Notes: a model not told the origin generated them from the sequence alone. 20,000 nt of DNA from an uncultured virus (IMG/VR IMGVR_UViG_3300033068_001557) (IMGVR_UViG_3300033068_001557), one strand, 5' to 3'; positions 1,957 to 15,514 are shown, counted from the first letter of the stretch. Made by a program: numbers and translations.

Positions 1957-2115
1957 ATGAAAAAGTTATTCCTTGATACAATACAAGAAGTAGAGAATTT
2001 AAAATCTTTACTTAAATGTGATAAAGTAACTTATCATTATCTAAAGATGAAAGGACAATATTTATTTAAATATCCTTCTGATTTAGAAGAAAAAGTACAT
2101 GATTTAGGTTATTAA
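1957..2115 (+). CDS. Small hypothetical protein (52 aa, not in the ORF track)
   Basis: ATG 1957 to TAA 2115, MKKLFLDTIQEVENLKSLLKCDKVTYHYLKMKGQYLFKYPSDLEEKVHDLGY, 12 nt after the previous stop. Confidence 0.6.
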   Translation: MKKLFLDTIQEVENLKSLLKCDKVTYHYLKMKGQYLFKYPSDLEEKVHDLGY

Positions 2116-2181
2116 AACCACATCAATCATAGTATAAAAATAAATGTCAGTTTGTTTGAGCCTTGTTCTGACTTTAAACTC

Positions 2182-3187
2182 GTGAAGGCATTCTATCCAG
2201 TAAGCTACTGGCGGTGGTTCACCATACTAGACAAGTGAATATTTTTATCAAGTTAGAAAACTTGGTTACTGTAGCAATACAGTATATAATTAGGGTGAGA
2301 ATCCCTGAAGTTTATCAGTTTATATGGCTTATATCTTGTCTTGAACAAGTATTAGTGCGACAAAACTGTTTGGCAGGTTTCTTGTCATTAGAATAACCTA
2401 TGAATTCATAAGTAGGGAAAGTATTATGAACACCATGTCATAATGCACTGAAAGAGTAATTTTTCAGGTCATATGAAAACCAATATAATATCTACATTAT
2501 GTAGTAACTGAATGCCCAGCAAGCTGAAAGTGAATGTAATGTAGACTTGGGACTGACCATCTTGAGTTGAGTGGTAACACAATAAGAATTATATTGATTT
2601 GACTCCAAAAACTCCTTAGCCAGAGTTATAGAGTCATTTACAATACATTGTATTTCCTATGTAGCTTTTACCAAAAAGCTCATGAGTGTGGTAACTCATT
2701 AGAAATAGTAGGATAGGTAGAAATACTGATAAATTCAATGTAAAGAGTAAGTATTCTTGGCAGAAGAAAGCACGAGGTTGTCGTAGTTAAACCATTCAAA
2801 AGATGGCAAACTAACAAGACAAACTACAACCTTAACACGGTTTGGTATAAATAATACATTATATTATTAACACCAATTATTCTAAGATAATAAAGCAAAA
2901 GTGTTTGTCACACATAGAACAAAATAACCTTATCCTGCTGTAATATGTAGGTAATAGAGTCTCGCAAGGAATCTATTAAGGTGAAATGGATTATCATTCT
3001 AAGTGCAGGGATGTACTGAAGCTTTCCAAAGCAGATGGTAAAAAAGAGTAATCTATAACTCTATGTGTAGTGTTTGTAAGTTTTATAAACTTATGGTTAT
3101 GTCTGTTACCTATTAGAAATAATAGGTGTGATTAAGTCTTGAAAAAGACGAAAATGCAGATAGTAAAGGTCAAATCTCAGCCTTCAC
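2182..3187 (+). ncRNA. Giant ornate non-coding RNA candidate (GOLLD/ROOL-like class)
   Basis: ~1.1-kb gap with no credible ORF; ends pair (GTGAAGGC 2182-2189 / GCCTTCAC 3180-3187); about 20 nested helices, several with GNRA loops (2267-2284 GCAA, 2448-2467 GTAA, 3108-3127 GAAA, 3136-3149 GAAA). Confidence 0.7.
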
Positions 3188-3224
3188 CCTTAAAAGGGTA
3201 TTTTATAATTTAAAACCACTCAAC

Positions 3225-3443
3225 ATGAAAAATTTAATTATATTAATATTGTTATTTACTGCTTGTAAAAAAGAAAAATACACAGCAGATAACTGTCCTG
3301 CAAGAAATGCAAGATATTTTTATTACAACGATAACACAACTGAAACTTGTTGTGCAAAAAGTATTAGTCCTTGTGATGCTAAAACAATACAAGAATTTAA
3401 AAATAACTGTCCTTCAGGATGGGTTGTTAAATATGCACCTTAA
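3225..3443 (+). CDS. Small Cys-rich lipoprotein
   Basis: MKNLIILILLFTA-C lipobox followed by KKEK, typical of Bacteroidota lipoproteins; 5 further Cys. Confidence 0.7.
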   Translation: MKNLIILILLFTACKKEKYTADNCPARNARYFYYNDNTTETCCAKSISPCDAKTIQEFKNNCPSGWVVKYAP

Positions 3444-3647
3444 ATTTATTATTCATTATAAATCAACAGATTATGAAAAAAAATCAGTATCAAGCACATC
3501 TTACAGCTATGTTATTAGCAGGAGCTACTGTTTGGCATTTTTAAAATGCAATCTCTTTTTCAAGCGTACTTGTACAATGCTTAGTTTTGTGAGCGATAAT
3601 CAAAACTTCTATTTTTTATTCAATATGTCACAATATAAAATCAACAC

Positions 3648-6046: not shown

Positions 6047-8197
6047 ATGAAAAGAAAAATAGAAGATTATAAAGATCAAAAAGTAGCAATACATTGTTCT
6101 ACTAAAGAAGAATGGGATAAAATTGTTGATTTATTTCCTTTAAATAGAAGAAGTATAAAAAAAATTTATTGGCAAGCAAATGTTAATAATGGAAAATCTG
6201 ATACCATTAACATTGAAGGGTATGGTTGGAGTCCTAAAAAACATTTTGAAAATAAAGGTTACACTATTTATCCTGCATCTGATTTTTTAGAAGAAAAACC
6301 ATTTAAATTTAACATAGGGGATGAAATAAAAGCTAAACCAGGAGGTTATTATATTGCTAGTCCTCAACATTTTGCAGAAAGTCATAAAAAACAGTTTCCT
6401 TCAAACGGAACAACAATTTCAGGTAAAATAATTGAAAGAACTCAAGCTCAAGGATTTAATTGGTATAGATGCAGTTATGACAATTGGATAACAGAAGAAG
6501 GAGTAGAATTGGTTAAAGAAGATATTCCTGAGTATATTGAATACATTGATACTAAATATAAAGGACAAATTGTTAAAGTTGAAGAATGGACTAACCATAG
6601 TTTTTGTTGTATTAGATTTGAAAATGGTCAAAGAGAACAACCTTTTAAAAATTTGGTAAAACCTTCTACAAAAGAAGCCTTTGATTTACAAAATAAACTT
6701 AAAACTATAAGTGAAGATATATTTTGTATTAAATTAAATTCTCAAGAAGAATCTGGAACGTTAGTATTTGGAAAATACAAAGTTGGAGATGTTGTAGTTT
6801 CTTTAGAACAAAAAGCTCCTTATAGAGTAGTAGGAGATATGTTTAAAGTTTTAGAAAATAATATTAATGCTTTATATTATCTCCATAATACTTGTTCTTT
6901 AGCTTCTAAAGAATGGAGAGCAGCTACAGAAGAAGAAATAAAAGCTTTTCAACAAGGTATTAAAAATGTCAATGATATTCCTAAAATAGGTGATTATGTA
7001 GTTATTACTAAGGGAACTAATAATTGGTCTTCTAAGATGAATCACTATATTGGAAAAGTAGCTAAACTTACTAGTTGTTTAAGTGATGATAAAAATACTT
7101 TTAGAATAGATTTAGATAATGGAGGTTGGAAATGGCAATTAAAACATAATCATTTTAGAAAAGCAAAACCAGATGAAATACCTTTAAAACAAACTACTAT
7201 GAGCATGCAAGAAATTCAACAAATATGTAAGGAAAAATATCCTATTGGTTGTAAATATAAATGTCTTAATTTTAACTCTGAGTATATTTTACTTCAAGAT
7301 GATTGTACTTATACAATTGTTAATAATGAAATTTGGGCAAGTCATGGAAAAGGATGTCTTTATAGTAATGGTAAATATGCTGAATTAATTTCTTTACCTA
7401 AATCTGATTGGAATCCTCAAATAGGAGATCATGTTATTATTATATCTCCTACAGAAGAAAATAATTGGGTATCAGGAATGGATAAATATGTAGGTAAACT
7501 TGCTAAAATTACTAAAAAAAGAGAAGATACTTCTTTTGAAATAGATTTAGACAACGCTTATTATGTATGGGATTATAAACCTCATCGTAAATTTTTTAGA
7601 AAAGCTGAACCACATGAAATATCTACTATATCAAAATCATTTGAATTTTTTAAAGAAGGAGATAAAGTTCTTATAAAAGATGGCTGTGAATATTATCATC
7701 AAGGAATAGATTCTATCGGAGAAAAAATGATTGGAATTATATCAAATGTTACTTCTTCAAGTTTACTTTTTATTGTTAAATGGTCTGATGGAAGTCAAAA
7801 TACTTATAATAAAGAACATCTTGACCATTATGTAGAAATGACTTCAAGTAAATCTATTAGTCCTGCTATGTTAGAAATAGCTAAATCTAAATATCCTTTA
7901 GGAACTTTTTACATTGATTTATATGAAGGTAAACAAGAAGTAAGAGGAACTCTTACTATTAAAAAAGATATGATTACTGATGGATGGGGAGGAGCTGTTT
8001 ATCAAAAAGGCAAATGGGCAAAAATAGTTGACGCTCTTTATAATGATAATAAATCTGAACAAAAGACTAGTACTTCAGAAAATTATCCTTTAACCTCTAC
8101 AAAATCAGTTACAAAGAAAAAAAGAGAAATTACATTAGTTCCTTTAATACAACCAAAAACAGTCAAAGTATTTGACAGAGAAGAAAATTTTTTTTAA
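6047..8197 (+). CDS. Large modular hypothetical protein with internal repeated small beta-domains
   Basis: 716 aa; repeated [FY]KxGD-type module starts, two IGD..NNW..M..Y.GK.AK.T..F.IDLDN..W..FRKA.P.EI repeats and two KYP.G..G..Y..GK[YW]A repeats. Confidence 0.85.
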   Translation: MKRKIEDYKDQKVAIHCSTKEEWDKIVDLFPLNRRSIKKIYWQANVNNGKSDTINIEGYGWSPKKHFENKGYTIYPASDFLEEKPFKFNIGDEIKAKPGGYYIASPQHFAESHKKQFPSNGTTISGKIIERTQAQGFNWYRCSYDNWITEEGVELVKEDIPEYIEYIDTKYKGQIVKVEEWTNHSFCCIRFENGQREQPFKNLVKPSTKEAFDLQNKLKTISEDIFCIKLNSQEESGTLVFGKYKVGDVVVSLEQKAPYRVVGDMFKVLENNINALYYLHNTCSLASKEWRAATEEEIKAFQQGIKNVNDIPKIGDYVVITKGTNNWSSKMNHYIGKVAKLTSCLSDDKNTFRIDLDNGGWKWQLKHNHFRKAKPDEIPLKQTTMSMQEIQQICKEKYPIGCKYKCLNFNSEYILLQDDCTYTIVNNEIWASHGKGCLYSNGKYAELISLPKSDWNPQIGDHVIIISPTEENNWVSGMDKYVGKLAKITKKREDTSFEIDLDNAYYVWDYKPHRKFFRKAEPHEISTISKSFEFFKEGDKVLIKDGCEYYHQGIDSIGEKMIGIISNVTSSSLLFIVKWSDGSQNTYNKEHLDHYVEMTSSKSISPAMLEIAKSKYPLGTFYIDLYEGKQEVRGTLTIKKDMITDGWGGAVYQKGKWAKIVDALYNDNKSEQKTSTSENYPLTSTKSVTKKKREITLVPLIQPKTVKVFDREENFF

Positions 8198-8670: not shown

Positions 8671-8690
8671 TTAATTTTTTTTATTGTAAT

Positions 8691-8762
8691 TGTCTGTTAG
8701 TTCAATGGATAGAACTATTGATTTCTAATCAATTAATACAAGTTCGATTCTTGTACAGACAA
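8691..8762 (+). tRNA. trnR: tRNA-Arg (anticodon UCU)
   Basis: Acceptor TGTCTGT/ACAGACA; D arm GTTC-AATGGATA-GAAC (A20 Arg identity element); anticodon arm ATTGA-TTTCTAA-TCAAT; T arm ACAAG-TTCGATT-CTTGT; CCA not encoded. Confidence 0.92.
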
Positions 8763-8805
8763 TTACATTTATTTTTTTTTTGGAACTAATGTAATTTTAA
8801 ATTTT

Positions 8806-9135: not shown

Positions 9136-9531
9136 GGGGCTGTACAGGCTTTGCTTTCAAACAGAAGGAAATAATTTAGGTAGAGAACAAACTCTTTAAA
9201 ATGAAAACACAATTTTAAATGGCAATAATGCTAATCAAGATCAAAAATCAACTTTATTTGTATCTCATAAAAATGTAGATGCAATTTGTGCTACTATTGA
9301 AAGATCAGTAAACACAAGTAAGTTGGAGCTAATTGCAGCTTAACAAACAAATGCAAGAAGGAAGTTTCTATATCTTCTGATATTTAAAATATAGTGGTGG
9401 ATTTTTGACAATTTATTGTCAACCCTTTTTAGATTGGAATCTAAAGTTAGTAAACTATGATTAACCTATACCTATAAATAAAATTATTTTTGGAACTTTG
9501 GAATACATGGGTTCGATTCCCATCAGCTCCA
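9136..9531 (+). ncRNA. ssrA: tmRNA (phage-encoded)
   Basis: 5' GGGGCTG pairs with 3' CAGCTCC-A including the G3-U Ala identity pair; T arm ATGGG-TTCGATT-CCCAT; helix 2 AAATAATTT/AAATTATTT; internal start-less frame GGC(9221) to ...LIAA-TAA(9343); 396 nt. Confidence 0.88.
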
Positions 9532-9555
9532 CAAACAACTTAAAATCAACAAATT

Positions 9556-12165: not shown

Positions 12166-12427
12166 AAAAGAACAAGTAAAAGATTATTGGAAAGCATTAT
12201 TTCATTATACATTATCATGGATAAATCCTTTTTTAGAAAAAAAGTTTAAAACTTATTATGGATTTTGTCATTATTTTGCATTAATACAATATAAAGATTT
12301 AATCAATTATACTGAATTAGTAGCTTTAGCTCCTCAAAAAAATTATTTAGAATATTGGTTTGAATGTGGTAAAAAATTACCAAGAATTAAACTGCTTATA
12401 AAAGCAATTATAAATTGTTATAAATGA
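12158..12427 (+). CDS. Hypothetical protein
   Basis: 89-aa ORF overlapping its neighbours; ATGA overlap with the polymerase. Confidence 0.7.
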   Translation: MTKKEQVKDYWKALFHYTLSWINPFLEKKFKTYYGFCHYFALIQYKDLINYTELVALAPQKNYLEYWFECGKKLPRIKLLIKAIINCYK

Positions 12428-13755
12428 AATTAATTAATGATATAGAAATATTTTATAATTTAAGTTTCTTTGGTTTTAAAAATTTTGAAACCAAAGAAAC
12501 TTTTTCTTTTGAAATATCAGAATATGTAAATCAATCTCAGGAATTTTATGATTTTTTGTTAAAATTAGATAAAAATAATGTTTTTTTTATTTCATTTAAT
12601 GGTATTGATTATGATAATCTTGTAATAAATTATTTTTTTAAACATTATAACGTGTTTAAACAAAATAATTTTACACCATTAGATATTTGTTTATCTCTCA
12701 AAGAATTTTCAGATTATGTTATTAACTGTCAAGATAGTCACAATGATAGTGAAATAAAAAAATATAAATATCATAATAAATGGATTGATATTGATTTATT
12801 CAGATATTGGTCTAAAATGACAAGACAAAATAGAAAAATATCTTTAAAATCATTAGGAATACAATTAAATCATGACAGAGTTCAAGAATTACCATACAAA
12901 CATAATAAGATTTTAACAAAAGAAGAAATTCAAAACGTTAAAGATTATAATATTAATAATGATTTAGTTATTACTGATAAACTTTGTGAGAAAATGAAAC
13001 CTCAAATTCTTCAAAGACAAGATGCTAATATAAAATATGGTTTTAATTGTTGGTCTTGGGATGGTGTAAAACTTGGTTTAAATATATTATTAGAAGAATA
13101 TTGTAAAGAATATGGTTATGAAAGAAATCAGATTGATGGTTTAAGAAGTAAATTAGAACCAATTAAAATTGATAGATTACTTTCTCATAAAATAAAATTT
13201 ACAGAAACAGAAGAAAAAGTTGAATTAAAATATGATAAACAAAATAAACCTTATTATTTATGTAATAGTTTTTATTCATTATATAATCATCTTAAAGAAA
13301 GAGTAGTATCAACTACTAATGAATTATCTTATTCTGTTATTTTAAATGGAGTAAAATATGATATTAAAAGTGGTGGATTACATAGTTATCATAATCCAGA
13401 AATAGTTGAACCTGATTTATCTAAATTTATTTATAGAGATAAAGACGTAAGTTCAATGTACCCAACTTTAGGAGCTATTTATAGTTATGTTCCTACACAT
13501 CTTCCAGGAATGGATAAAGTAATTTTAAGAATTAGAAATCAAAGATTAGAGTACAAAAAATCAGGAAATAAAAAAGATGCTGAATTATATAAATTAGCAC
13601 TTAATGGTGGATATTATGGTAATCTTAATAGTGCTTATACACCTATGTATGACCCTAAACAATTATTAGCAGTAACATTAAACGGACAAATGTTTCTTTT
13701 AATGTTTTGTGAAAAAATGATTGAAGCAGGAATACAAATTGATAGTTGTAACACT
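12424..13755 (+). CDS. polB: Family B DNA polymerase, exon 1 (3'-5' exonuclease and polymerase motifs A, B)
   Basis: Exo I NDIEIF, Exo II SFNGIDYD, Exo III YNINNDL; motif A DVSSMYP; motif B KLALNGGYYG; ends at DSCNT, the first half of motif C. The unspliced ORF runs on to 13773. Confidence 0.92.
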
Positions 13756-14028
13756 AAAACGTTGGTGTTATAAAATCGGGTTAATTGACGGGAAACTCTT
13801 TAGAATTTATTCTACTAAATTATTATAGTAATATAATAACGGCTGAAGTAATTATTCAGGTATAGTAACAAAGAATAAAATTAGACAATCCGCAGCCAAG
13901 ACTCCGACCATTTGGAGTAAGGTTCAACGACTACTGGAGAGAAAAAGGTTTCTCTTAATAACCAGAAATAATGCCCGACATTTAATAAATTTAGTAATTA
14001 AAATTAAAAATTAAAACGATATATTTTG

Positions 14029-14036
14029 TATCTTTG
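14029..14036 (+). promoter_or_regulatory. Bacteroidota-type -7 promoter element upstream of the homing endonuclease
   Basis: TATCTTTG fits TAnnTTTG, 23 nt before ATG 14060; no clear -33 element. Confidence 0.45.
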
Positions 14037-14059
14037 TACTTTAAAAAAGACTATAAAAT

Positions 14060-14872
14060 ATGCAAACATCACATACAAAAATTGATTTAAAACACTTTGG
14101 TATTTATATAATAAAAAATACTATTAATAATGATTTTTATATTGGTTCTACTATAGAAAGTTTTCAAAAAAGAAAACAAAAACACATATATGCTTATGAA
14201 AAATGGTTAAATGGAATTGATAAAAATCAAATTCCGCATTTATATAAAGCAATTAAAAAATATGGTATGGAAAATTTTGAATTTATTATCTATAAAAAAT
14301 TTATAAATAAAAAAGATTCAAAAAGAACTAAAGAAATCATTACTTATATTGAAGAAAAATATATTGCTACTTTAAATCCAAAATATAATATTTGTAAAAA
14401 ACCTACACAAGGAGGTTGTCCAAATTTAGGAAGAAATTTATCTCAAGAATGGAAAGATAAAATAGGAGAAAAATCAAAACTTTATAGACATATAGGAGAA
14501 GTTTATAATAATAAAGTTAAGCAAAATAAAAAAGGTTCTTCAATATATAAAATAGAAGATTTAAAAGGTAATATATTTATAGGTAGTAGTATAGAATGTC
14601 AGAAATATTTTAATGTTTCCATACATCCTATAATAGATAAATATAATAATATAAATAATAAATCTTTATTTTTTAAAAGTGTAGAAAAATTAAAAAATCA
14701 GAAAAAGAAAATAAAATTATTTTTAGAAAAAGAAGAAATAATATTTAATTCTTACGGAGAATGTGATAGATATTTGAATATGTGGAAAGGATTTACTTCA
14801 ACACAGATTACAAATAATCGTAAATTAATTGTAAATTATAAATATGAATTAATAAATGAAGATATAGTCTAA
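14060..14872 (+). CDS. Intron-encoded GIY-YIG homing endonuclease
   Basis: GIYIIKNTINNDFYIGST motif, conserved R, E and YN; NUMOD-like C-terminal segments; lies in the intron P8 loop and its last codons overlap the S element. Confidence 0.92.
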   Translation: MQTSHTKIDLKHFGIYIIKNTINNDFYIGSTIESFQKRKQKHIYAYEKWLNGIDKNQIPHLYKAIKKYGMENFEFIIYKKFINKKDSKRTKEIITYIEEKYIATLNPKYNICKKPTQGGCPNLGRNLSQEWKDKIGEKSKLYRHIGEVYNNKVKQNKKGSSIYKIEDLKGNIFIGSSIECQKYFNVSIHPIIDKYNNINNKSLFFKSVEKLKNQKKKIKLFLEKEEIIFNSYGECDRYLNMWKGFTSTQITNNRKLIVNYKYELINEDIV

Positions 14873-14905
14873 ACTATATAGAGATATATAGAATAATGTT
14901 ACTTG

Positions 14906-15514
14906 GATGGAGTAACTTGTATTATTCCAATAGAACTTGAAGATAAATATGAGGAAGTTTGTAAAGAATGGGAATCATTAACTTTAATGGAATTAGAAGC
15001 TGAAGATTATAAAAAAATAATTAGAGGTAATATAAATAATTATTTAGGAATAAAAGTAAATGGTGATGTAAAAGAAAAAGGAATATGGTTTTTAACTAAC
15101 CCTGATTTAAGTAATAGTGTTGATGCTTTAATTATAGCAAAATCTCTTAAATTATATTATACAAAAAGTATTTCTATTGAAGATTCTATTTCTAATCCAG
15201 AAAAATATGGTTTTACAATATTTGATTATTGTTATAGTAATAAAATATCTAAAGATTATACTGTATGGTGGAACAATAAACATCAACAAAATTTAAATCG
15301 TTATTATATTAGTGGTAATAATTCCCCTTATCTTTATAAAAAAAAATACAATAAAACTACTTTAGAAAATGTATTAAAAGGTTATGGTGTTGAAATTTAT
15401 AATAATCATGTAGAAAAACCTTTTAAAGAATATAATGTAAATACTCAATATTATATTTCAAAGGTGAATGAAATTTTAAATGAATTTGAACCTAAACAAA
15501 CAAAATTATTTTAA
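14906..15514 (+). CDS. polB: Family B DNA polymerase, exon 2
   Basis: Begins DGV, completing motif C NTDG; INNY..KEKG and YYI motifs; spliced product 646 aa. The TTG start at 14903 in the ORF track is intron sequence. Confidence 0.9.
   Translation, partial: DGVTCIIPIELEDKYEEVCKEWESLTLMELEAEDYKKIIRGNINNYLGIKVNGDVKEKGIWFLTNPDLSNSVDALIIAKSLKLYYTKSISIEDSISNPEKYGFTIFDYCYSNKISKDYTVWWNNKHQQNLNRYYISGNNSPYLYKKKYNKTTLENVLKGYGVEIYNNHVEKPFKEYNVNTQYYISKVNEILNEFEPKQTKLF

What the first reader, a model, noticed from the sequence alone, without database searches (positions are those of the whole stretch)
2182..3187. ~1-kb ornate non-coding RNA with base-paired ends: a GOLLD/ROOL-like or new giant phage RNA
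Seen: in an otherwise densely coding genome, 2116-3224 has no credible ORF, looks less AT-rich than its flanks and is almost fully tiled by helices. Closing helix: GTGAAGGC(2182-2189)/GCCTTCAC(3180-3187), 1 kb apart. Domain-closing helices: CAATATAAT(2481-2489)/ATTATATTG(2588-2596), TCTACATTA(2491-2499)/TAATGTAGA(2537-2545), TACATTG/CAATGTA (2644-2742), AGGTTGT/ACAACCT (2775-2832), ACACATAGA(2910-2918)/TCTATGTGT(3060-3068). Hairpins: CCAGTA/TACTGG, TACTGTA-GCAA-TACAGTA, CTGAAAGA-GTAA-TTTTTCAG, ACCTATTA-GAAA-TAATAGGT, GTCTT-GAAA-AAGAC and a T-loop-like AGGG-TGAGAAT-CCCT (2292-2306). GNRA loops and G-U pairs favour the + strand. Established: GOLLD and ROOL are large ornate RNAs of unknown function found in phages and prophages, often near tRNAs. 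Inference: this is an enlarged member of that class or a new family.
Basis: partly seen in the sequence, partly recalled or inferred. Interest (0 to 1): 0.9.

Follow-up and report, generated by a model that had tools for sequence, protein, structure and literature searches.

The report
Divergent phage GOLLD cage RNA
The gene-free kilobase is a real, strongly folded non-coding RNA of a phage, but it belongs to the already known GOLLD family of giant cage-forming RNAs, as a divergent member that the standard catalogue threshold misses.

Summary
The stretch has no good ORF, is richer in G+C than its flanks, and folds better than shuffles (z -4.3). It is a GOLLD RNA, not a new family. Rfam's GOLLD model matches 2773-3183 (+) end to end at E 7e-27, but at 100.5 bits, below the curated 150, so the default scan is silent.

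About 20 metagenomic relatives share both halves. On a 17-sequence alignment, 100 of 132 pairs change on both sides. A model of the 5' half's first module also finds canonical GOLLD 5' domains at the right offset, so both domains are homologous.

It clashes with the last GOLLD hairpin and the terminator.

Contigs from RNA libraries of three studies start at 2301-2305, just after a TATAAT box. The RNA is therefore about 890 nt (about 2300-3187), not 1 kb with paired ends.

By homology it should build an RNA-only cage; that step is inferred.

The scan has met divergent GOLLD RNAs on other DNA before (e.g. e1-5938885).

The parts
2262..2290 (+). Putative promoter: TTGGTT (2262-2267), 17-nt spacer, TATAAT (2285-2290). 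The spacer is filled by the perfect palindrome TACTGTA-GCAA-TACAGTA (2267-2284), a possible operator.
   Evidence: Read from the sequence. The scan tool did not list it because the -35 hexamer matches only 3 of 6. RNA-library contigs start 11-15 nt after the -10 box. The palindrome is unique in the window. This is an inference.
2300..3187 (+). GOLLD-family RNA, likely transcript (about 890 nt; the 3' end could reach about 3205 if the terminator is used).
   Evidence: RNA-library contigs start at 2301 (X15), 2304 (X17) and 2305 (X20), and one ends at 3187 (X17) (contigs only, a weak hint). Fold z -4.30. Rfam GOLLD match.
2300..2371 (+). Lineage-variable 5' leader with small hairpins, e.g. CTTG-TCTTGAA-CAAG at 2335-2349.
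   Evidence: Not alignable across the family. Conservation starts just before 2372. Relatives carry unrelated hairpins here.
2372..2772 (+). 5' (cap) domain, family-conserved core. It starts with the invariant GGCAGGTTTCTTGTC (2372-2386), read as a hairpin whose loop GGUUU (2376-2380) pairs with AAACC (2477-2481) as a pseudoknot.
   Evidence: 12 helices with compensatory changes (helices 1-12). Model R1 of 2368-2484 finds canonical GOLLD 5' domains. The pseudoknot covaries across GOLLD types.
2773..2834 (+).
   Evidence: Rfam alignment. 17 of 17 sequences pair at 6 of its 7 positions (16 of 17 at the seventh), with up to 5 pair types.
2835..2893 (+). Variable A+U-rich linker, the counterpart of the disordered, cage-interior linker of env-38 GOLLD.
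   Evidence: Length and sequence vary freely in the alignment. Relative L330 carries tRNA-Ile(GAT) here. The literature reports tRNAs in this linker (PMC12286853, PMC12990946, passages read).
2894..3183 (+). Rest of the conserved 3' (ring) domain. It includes the long-range helix 2910-2918/3060-3068, GNRA hairpins at 3108-3127 and 3136-3149, and the terminal hairpin GGT...GCC ending at 3183.
   Evidence: Rfam alignment. Helices 17-27. The long-range helix is kept through compensatory changes in 11 of 11 sequences whose anchors were placed correctly.
3186..3205 (+). Terminator-like hairpin ACCC-TTAAAA-GGGT followed by ATTTTAT.
   Evidence: Scan result (2 terminator-like sites found, 0.3 expected). 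Conserved in relative L080.

Best explanation
Window ~2300-3187 (+) is the gene for a divergent member of the GOLLD family of giant phage non-coding RNAs. It sits in an uncultivated, A+T-rich phage whose replication proteins are distantly related to those of crAss-like and Flavobacterium phages.

The RNA has the family's two-part build:
- a 5' domain (2372-2772) that opens with a hairpin-pseudoknot module;
- a 3' domain (2773-3183) interrupted by a variable A+U-rich linker (2835-2893).

It appears to be transcribed from its own promoter (TATAAT at 2285-2290) and to end at or just after 3187 (hairpin plus U run). It appears abundant in RNA libraries.

By homology with the two GOLLD RNAs solved by cryo-EM, the most likely mode of action is self-assembly. 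The 3' domains would form rings, the 5' domains would cap them, and two half-shells would join into an RNA-only cage of roughly 12-14 copies with the linker facing inward. What the cage does for the phage is unknown.

Shown here: family homology of both domains, conserved base-pairing, and presence in RNA libraries. Inferred: promoter, exact ends, cage assembly, copy number and any cargo. The confidence given is for family membership and a real structured RNA; for cage assembly by this particular RNA I would say about 0.6.
For: Family match. The Rfam GOLLD model matches 2773-3183 at E 7e-27, covering model positions 1-416 of 416 on the + strand.

Relatives. A 20-mer pattern from the 5' half gave 27 metagenome loci. 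Of these, 21 are true relatives by nhmmer: 16 near full length and 5 partial. They align with the window from 2372 to 3183.

Covariation. RNAalifold predicts 129 pairs, 95 of them with a two-sided change. On 132 named pairs, 94.1% of cells pair, against 74.0% in shuffles and 39.5-45.7% with slid partners. 100 pairs show two-sided changes. The covariation score is 0.612, against 0.223 for shuffles (0 of 500 reach it) and at most 0.128 for slides.

5' domain homology. A covariance model of 2368-2484, built only from this clade, hits 22 of 24 other GOLLD-bearing loci on the right strand. The hits lie about 290-300 nt before the 3' domain (287 nt in L062 and L009, 289 nt in the window). It also hits 1 of 14 non-GOLLD control loci; that locus, L094, carries a GOLLD 3'-end motif downstream.

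Pseudoknot. It covaries across types: GGUUU:AAACC, GGCUU:AAGCC, CCUU:AAGG, UGCUUA:UAAGCA, GUGUA:UACAC and GUAUA:UAUAC.

Linker. It behaves as in GOLLD, with a tRNA-Ile inside it in relative L330.

Phage context. DNA polymerase, helicase, homing endonuclease, tRNA and tmRNA are present.

RNA libraries. The stretch is held by 20 runs from 14 studies, 6 of them RNA libraries. Contigs from RNA runs of three studies begin at 2301, 2304 and 2305. In run X15 contig depth is 3.7 for 1966-2224 and 1229 for 2301-2432.

Cage architecture and domain roles come from PMC12286853 and PMC12990946 (passages read).
Against: The bit score (100.5) is below Rfam's gathering score (150), while canonical lake and marine GOLLD loci score 284-332.

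Sequence-only profiles of this clade do not detect canonical GOLLD in either domain. The link therefore rests on structure-aware models.

Individual R1 hits on canonical loci are weak (E 8e-4 to 0.08, rough calibration). Their force lies in consistent placement.

The structure scored was derived from the same alignment, which inflates paired cells.

The RNA evidence comes from assembled contigs only. These cannot show strand, true ends or level. The runs were selected for holding this stretch, RNA libraries can contain DNA, and no DNA run was laid for comparison.

The loops of the two hairpins in the P21 region differ from the rest of the clade, so contacts between half-shells may not be the same.

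No assembly experiment exists for this clade.
Confidence: 0.88

Rival explanations
1. The RNA is: about 1 kb, 2182-3187, with its ends joined by the GTGAAGGC/GCCTTCAC helix. That would make it an enlarged GOLLD with an extra 5' extension.
For: The 8-bp complement is exact and somewhat unusual (17 of 500 shuffles). The minimum-energy fold of 2182-3187 uses it. A low-depth RNA-library contig covers 1966-2224, so some upstream transcription cannot be excluded; a longer precursor processed near 2300 is possible.
Against: None of 14 relatives has a comparable 5'/3' complement. The 3' arm overlaps the terminal GOLLD hairpin and the terminator hairpin. Conservation across the family starts only at about 2372. 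High-depth RNA contigs of three studies begin at 2301-2305, behind a TATAAT box.
Confidence: 0.07
2. It is a new RNA family that resembles GOLLD only by chance or convergence.
For: The score is below Rfam's gathering cut-off. One close relative (L211) is not found by the Rfam model even at E up to 1. No sequence-level link to canonical GOLLD was found.
Against: The match has E 7e-27 over the whole 416-position model. Six further loci of the same sub-threshold group score 66-113 bits. The 5' module cross-detects canonical GOLLD at the correct offset in 22 of 24 loci. The pseudoknot covaries across types. The linker lies in the same place and can carry a tRNA.
Confidence: 0.02
3. It is a GOLLD homologue that does not form the closed cage. 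It might form open rings or another oligomer, or act with a protein or the ribosome, because its inter-shell loops have changed.
For: In the window's subgroup, the two P21-region hairpin loops are GGGA and UCCA in 4 of 4 sequences. In the 13 others, the first loop is GGCA in 13 of 13, and the second is GGCA (9) or CGCAA (4). In env-38 the corresponding loops make the kissing contacts between half-shells. Copy number changes with small structural differences: 10, 12 or 14 copies (PMC12990946, passages read).
Against: All other helices of both domains are kept. GGA and UCC are complementary, so a contact may be preserved in another form.
Confidence: 0.15
4. The stretch is protein-coding, or is merely the leader of the downstream gene at 3225.
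For: ORFs of 60 and 45 aa exist. One RNA-library contig runs from 2866 on to 3444.
Against: Substitutions among relatives preserve base pairs, not reading frames, and indels are frequent and of any length. The 60-aa ORF lies mostly in the non-conserved leader. A terminator-like hairpin separates the RNA from the next gene.
Confidence: 0.02

Closest known systems
GOLLD RNA (Rfam RF02032); solved examples are env-38 GOLLD (833 nt, 14-mer) and Streptococcus agalactiae GOLLD (700 nt, 12-mer), per PMC12286853 and PMC12990946
   Same: The 3' domain matches the model end to end. There is a variable linker after the first 3'-domain hairpin, which can hold a tRNA in a relative. The 5' domain opens with a homologous hairpin-pseudoknot-GNRA hairpin module ('AAUAAA-hairpin-GAUAAAGUG-hairpin-UGCG'). 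It is phage-borne, lies on the same strand as its neighbours, is about 0.8-0.9 kb long, and has tRNA and tmRNA genes in the neighbourhood.
   Different: The score is 100.5 bits, against 284-332 for canonical loci and a gathering score of 150. No sequence-level similarity to canonical members is detectable. A clade-specific invariant 15-mer replaces the canonical first hairpin. In the P21 region, the Rfam alignment shows a 24-nt insertion and the loss of one model hairpin. Loop sequences are altered (GGGA/UCCA). It is not inside a tRNA array: 1 of 16 clade loci has a tRNA within 1.5 kb.
ROOL RNA (Rfam RF03087, number recalled)
   Same: A large ornate phage or prophage RNA that forms RNA-only cages.
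   Different: No match to any family other than GOLLD at a meaningful E-value in 2000-3350. ROOL has a different secondary structure (PMC12286853, passages read).

Membership tests
GOLLD (RF02032) | Statistically significant, full-length match of the conserved 3' domain to the family covariance model | tested here: met
   2773-3183 (+), model positions 1-416 of 416, E 7e-27, 100.5 bits.
GOLLD (RF02032) | Operational only, not a defining trait: reaching Rfam's curated gathering score (150 bits) | tested here: not met
   100.5 bits. The default scan is silent here. The same holds for relatives L080 (91.8) and L212-L217 (66-113).
GOLLD (RF02032) | 3' domain helices maintained by compensatory changes | tested here: met
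   Helices 13-27 are 86-100% paired, and most pairs show two-sided changes. The long-range helix is kept in 11 of 11 correctly anchored sequences.
GOLLD (RF02032) | Variable linker after the first 3'-domain hairpin, sometimes holding a tRNA | tested here: met
   2835-2893 is unalignable and A+U-rich. tRNA-Ile lies in the linker of L330.
GOLLD (RF02032) | A less conserved 5' domain of about 400 nt, homologous to that of other GOLLD RNAs | tested here: met
   400-nt conserved core at 2372-2772. Model R1 finds 22 of 24 other GOLLD loci at the right offset. The pseudoknot covaries. Only the first ~115 nt of the domain were tested this way.
GOLLD (RF02032) | Phage or prophage location | tested here: met
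   Phage DNA polymerase, helicase and homing endonuclease. Nearest named relatives are crAss-like and Flavobacterium phages at about 30% identity.
GOLLD (RF02032) | Self-assembly into a dihedral RNA-only cage | not testable with these tools
   Known for env-38 and S. agalactiae GOLLD (PMC12286853, PMC12990946). No RNA complex prediction or experiment is available here.
ROOL | Match to the ROOL covariance model | tested here: not met
   No ROOL match at E up to 10 in 2000-3350.

The most novel reading that the evidence does not exclude
This subgroup of GOLLD may have rewired the contacts that join the two half-shells. Most of the clade carries 'GC'-containing loops on both P21-region hairpins, which suit same-with-same kissing. 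The window and its three nearest relatives instead carry GGGA on one hairpin and UCCA on the other. These cannot pair with themselves but can pair with each other (GGA:UCC). That would mean a switch from two homotypic to two heterotypic loop-loop bridges, and possibly a cage of different copy number or openness. All four sequences are close kin, so this counts as one evolutionary event.
Probability: 0.15. Interest if true: 0.5.

Novelty: new member of a known kind. Interest (0 to 1): 0.3.

Why it matters
It shows that Rfam's gathering threshold hides a clade of GOLLD RNAs. At least 17 distinct near-full-length sequences were aligned here, and six further sub-threshold loci were found in phage contigs of 8 to 178 kb. 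The window's stretch itself occurs in sequencing runs of 14 studies, labelled wastewater, activated sludge, sludge, riverine and freshwater, and in RNA libraries. Adding the clade to the family seed would improve annotation. It would also give structural biologists natural variants of the cap domain and of the inter-shell loops, the parts reported to set cage copy number. It does not bring the unknown function of GOLLD closer.

Tried and rejected
- blastn of 2100-3250 against 50,697 phage records found no match.
- The window's own genome is not held.
- Most pattern scans of viral contigs returned chance hits: 55 of 86 loci had no second GOLLD motif. Nearly all loci were unrelated.
- Of the 27 metagenome loci, L342, L347, L349 and L353 were chance matches; so were the genome-collection hits L357 and L358 (L358 duplicates L353).
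- nhmmer profiles of either half did not reach canonical GOLLD, so sequence alone cannot link them.
By eye, a neighbouring inner helix (CCTAT/ATAGG here, ACTTA/TAAGT or GCCTA/TAGGT in relatives) looks conserved; it was not counted.
- RNAalifold's long-range triple 191-193/1049-1051 involves invariant columns and clashes with the terminal hairpin, so it was dropped.
- In three of the four RNA runs no contig covered the flanking genes. Because the runs were chosen for holding this stretch and only contigs are kept, this is not used as evidence.
- The search of earlier findings by place returned nothing for this genome.
- The palindrome in the promoter spacer has no second copy in the window.

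Full report
**The observation.**
- Between 2116 and 3224 the only ORFs of 40 aa or more are 2214-2396 (+, GTG start, 60 aa) and 2680-2817 (-, TTG start, 45 aa).
- G+C is 32.7% there, against 25.0% for the whole window (profile).
- The stretch folds better than dinucleotide shuffles. For 2301-3187 the + strand gives z -4.30 (0 of 20 shuffles as good) and the - strand z -3.00 (0 of 20). A coding control of equal length (6301-7187) gives z +0.30 (15 of 20).

So there is a real, unusually structured, non-coding stretch.

**Identity of the 3' half.** Rfam at its curated thresholds reports only a tRNA (8691-8762) and a tmRNA (9136-9534) in the window.
- With E-value reporting on 2000-3350, the GOLLD model RF02032 matches 2773-3183 (+) over all 416 model positions. 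The match has 100.5 bits and E 7e-27, against a gathering score of 150. The six other listed matches have E of 3 to 6.6.
- The Rfam model covers only the conserved 3' half of GOLLD.
- For scale, eight canonical GOLLD loci fetched from viral contigs score 284-332 bits and one scores 179.
- The window belongs to a lower-scoring group. L080 scores 91.8. L212-L217, from contigs of 8 to 178 kb, score 66-113. L211 is not reported even at E up to 1, although it aligns with the window from end to end.

**Relatives and covariation.** A 20-letter pattern from the 5' half (GGCAGGTTTCTTGTCNTTAG) gave 27 loci in metagenome contigs and 2 in the genome collection.
- nhmmer with a seed profile recognised 21 of them as relatives, 16 near full length and 5 partial. 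One partial contig is 99% identical to window 2116-2421. The rest were chance hits.
- Seventeen sequences align from just before window 2372 to 3183. Outside those limits they are unrelated.
- RNAalifold predicts 129 pairs, 95 of them with at least one two-sided change.

| Measure | Observed | Shuffled | Slid partners |
|---|---|---|---|
| Cells forming standard pairs | 94.1% | 74.0% | 39.5-45.7% |
| Pairs with a two-sided change | 100 | 60.6 | 25-48 |
| Covariation score | 0.612 | 0.223 (0 of 500 reach it) | at most 0.128 |

The structure came from the same alignment, which flatters the paired-cell figure. The slide control is still clear. Both halves are supported: helices 1-12 lie in the 5' half and helices 13-27 in the 3' half.

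- 2775-2781/2826-2832 and the hairpins at 3108-3127 and 3136-3149 are fully supported.
- 2491-2499/2537-2545 is supported in a slightly shifted register.
- 2481-2489/2588-2596 is supported in its outer part.
- 2910-2918/3060-3068 is the long-range helix of the Rfam model. It is kept through compensatory changes (ACACATAGA/TCTATGTGT, ACACTTGAC/GTCAAGTGT, ACACTTGGT/ACCAAGTGT, TCTGATGTAT/GTATGTCAGA and others) in 11 of 11 sequences where my anchors fell correctly. Six rows were lost to anchor errors.
- 2644-2650/2736-2742 is not supported in this alignment.

**Ends of the RNA.** The 'closing helix' 2182-2189/3180-3187 is private to the window.
- Among 14 relatives with both ends present, the best 5'/3' complement is 4-6 nt and is matched by 115-500 of 500 shuffles. 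The window's 8 bp are matched by 17 of 500.
- Its 3' arm also uses the GCC of the terminal GOLLD hairpin and the first bases of a terminator-like hairpin, 3186-3199, which is followed by a T run.

The stretch is held by 20 public runs from 14 studies. Their labels are wastewater, activated sludge, sludge, riverine and freshwater. Six are RNA libraries. I laid four RNA libraries from four studies.
- Contigs begin at 2301 (X15, preceded by nine unrelated letters that look to me like adapter remnant; this is recalled), 2304 (X17), 2305 (X20) and 2328 (X19).
- One X17 contig ends at 3187.
- In X15, contig depths are 3.7 for 1966-2224, then 1229, 841 and 728 across 2301-2895, and 91 for a contig that runs on from 2866 to 3444.
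- These are assembled contigs from runs chosen for holding this stretch. They show neither strand nor true ends, and no DNA run was laid beside them, so this is a weak hint only.
- It agrees with a TATAAT box at 2285-2290, which has TTGGTT 17 nt upstream (read).

The most likely transcript is therefore about 2300-3187 (up to about 3205), roughly 890 nt. The palindrome TACTGTA-GCAA-TACAGTA exactly fills the promoter spacer and may be an operator. It has no second copy in the window.

**Is the 5' half also GOLLD?** By sequence alone it is not recognisable.
- BLAST groups the 5' regions into separate types: canonical; the window's type; and an L212/L213/L217 type.
- nhmmer profiles of the window's clade do not reach canonical loci in either half.
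- By eye, the canonical 5' alignment and the clade alignment share this order: hairpin - AAUAAA - GNRA hairpin - GAUAAAGUG - hairpin - UGCG - hairpin.

I built a covariance model (R1) from 16 clade sequences covering window 2368-2484 and searched 38 loci.
- It hit 22 of 24 other GOLLD-bearing loci on the correct strand (E 4.5e-5 to 0.08). The hit ends 287 nt before the 3' domain in L062 and L009, against 289 nt in the window. It missed L110 and L216.
- It hit 1 of 14 loci I had taken as non-GOLLD. That locus, L094, carries the GOLLD 3'-end motif about 700-800 nt downstream on the same strand and is probably a GOLLD too.
- Three further low-scoring hits lay elsewhere.

In the model-based alignment, the loop of the first hairpin is complementary to a stretch after the third hairpin in every type, with different letters each time:
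- GGUUU:AAACC (this clade; window 2376-2380 with 2477-2481)
- GGCUU:AAGCC (L213)
- CCUU:AAGG (L212, L217)
- UGCUUA:UAAGCA (L214)
- GUGUA:UACAC (canonical)
- GUAUA:UAUAC (L094)

This pseudoknot explains the invariant 15-mer and shows that the 5' domain shares the family's architecture, at least in its first module. I could not check whether this pairing is already drawn in the published GOLLD structure.

**Other family traits.** The unalignable A+U-rich segment 2835-2893 sits where GOLLD has its variable linker.
- In relative L330 that linker holds a tRNA-Ile(GAT). tRNAs are reported in GOLLD linkers (PMC12286853 and PMC12990946, passages read).
- Unlike many GOLLD genes, this clade is not inside tRNA arrays. 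Only 1 of 16 loci has any tRNA within 1.5 kb. Loci L216 and L217 of the other sub-threshold group are flanked by many tRNAs.

**Context.** The window is phage DNA.
- It carries a DNA polymerase split in two (12424-13773 and 14903-15514) around a GIY-YIG homing-endonuclease ORF, plus a helicase, tRNA-Arg and a tmRNA.
- The polymerase and helicase are about 30% identical to those of crAss-like phages and Flavobacterium phage FpV4. This suggests, but does not show, a host in Bacteroidota.

**How it most likely works.** Cryo-EM of env-38 GOLLD (833 nt) shows a 14-mer cage with D7 symmetry.
- The 3' regions form rings, the 5' regions form the caps, and the linker is disordered inside (PMC12286853, passages read).
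- The S. agalactiae RNA forms a 12-mer. Its 3' domain alone forms mostly decamers, so the 5' domain fixes the copy number (PMC12990946, passages read).
- Since both domains are homologous here, the same kind of self-assembly is the best-supported mechanism, but it is an inference. The biological role of the cage is unknown in the literature I read.

One difference may matter. In the P21 region, the Rfam alignment needs a 24-nt insertion and deletes one model hairpin.
- The two hairpins there carry loops GGGA and UCCA in the window and its three closest relatives (4 of 4).
- In the other 13 sequences, the first loop is GGCA in all 13, and the second is GGCA (9) or CGCAA (4).
- In env-38 the P21 loops make the kissing contacts between half-shells through self-complementary dinucleotides (PMC12286853). 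GGGA and UCCA cannot self-pair but are complementary to each other. This is the basis of the novel reading, and it rests on a single lineage.

**Novelty and verdict.** This is a known kind of RNA. What is new is membership: it belongs to a divergent clade missed by the catalogue threshold.
- Notes of this scan mention GOLLD 1406 times. Similar outcomes on other DNA include e1-5938885 and e1-5864308; I did not test them.
- I did not see the supplementary alignments of PMC12286853, nor the original description (Weinberg 2009, recalled only). Either may already include this clade.

Noticed in passing
window 9136-9534 and 8690-8763; loci L005, L017, L018, L075, L080, L024, L062: Phage tmRNA genes lie within 1.5 kb of GOLLD in 7 of 10 GOLLD loci scanned (two are cut by the locus end). 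The window has a tmRNA (53.8 bits, gathering score 47; not called by ARAGORN) and tRNA-Arg(TCT) about 5.5-6 kb downstream. Six papers hold both words; in the one whose passages I read (PMC6582537), no GOLLD-tmRNA linkage is described.
   Followed up: partly
window 12424-15514: The DNA polymerase is split into 12424-13773 and 14903-15514 (consecutive parts of phrog_1252), with a GIY-YIG homing-endonuclease ORF (14060-14872) between them. Whether this is an intron or a true gene split was not examined.
   Followed up: no
window 2267-2284: The perfect palindrome TACTGTA-GCAA-TACAGTA exactly fills the spacer of the putative GOLLD promoter. It may be an operator, and it is the only copy in the window.
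   Followed up: partly
L330 2023-2096: A relative of the window's RNA carries tRNA-Ile(GAT) inside its linker.
   Followed up: yes
L211 (same contig as L133 and L350), about 1200-2310 of L350: A clear full-length homologue of the window's RNA in a 172-kb phage contig is not reported by the Rfam GOLLD model even at E up to 1. The family therefore extends beyond what the current model can see.
   Followed up: partly
L216 and L217: Sub-threshold GOLLD genes (71 and 113 bits) sit in the middle of dense tRNA arrays, with 15 and 11 tRNA matches within 3 kb, in phage contigs of 112 and 119 kb.
   Followed up: no
window 2147-2173: A hairpin GTCAG-N17-CTGAC followed by TTTAAAC lies just after the upstream ORF (which ends at 2115). 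It may terminate the upstream operon ahead of the GOLLD promoter.
   Followed up: no
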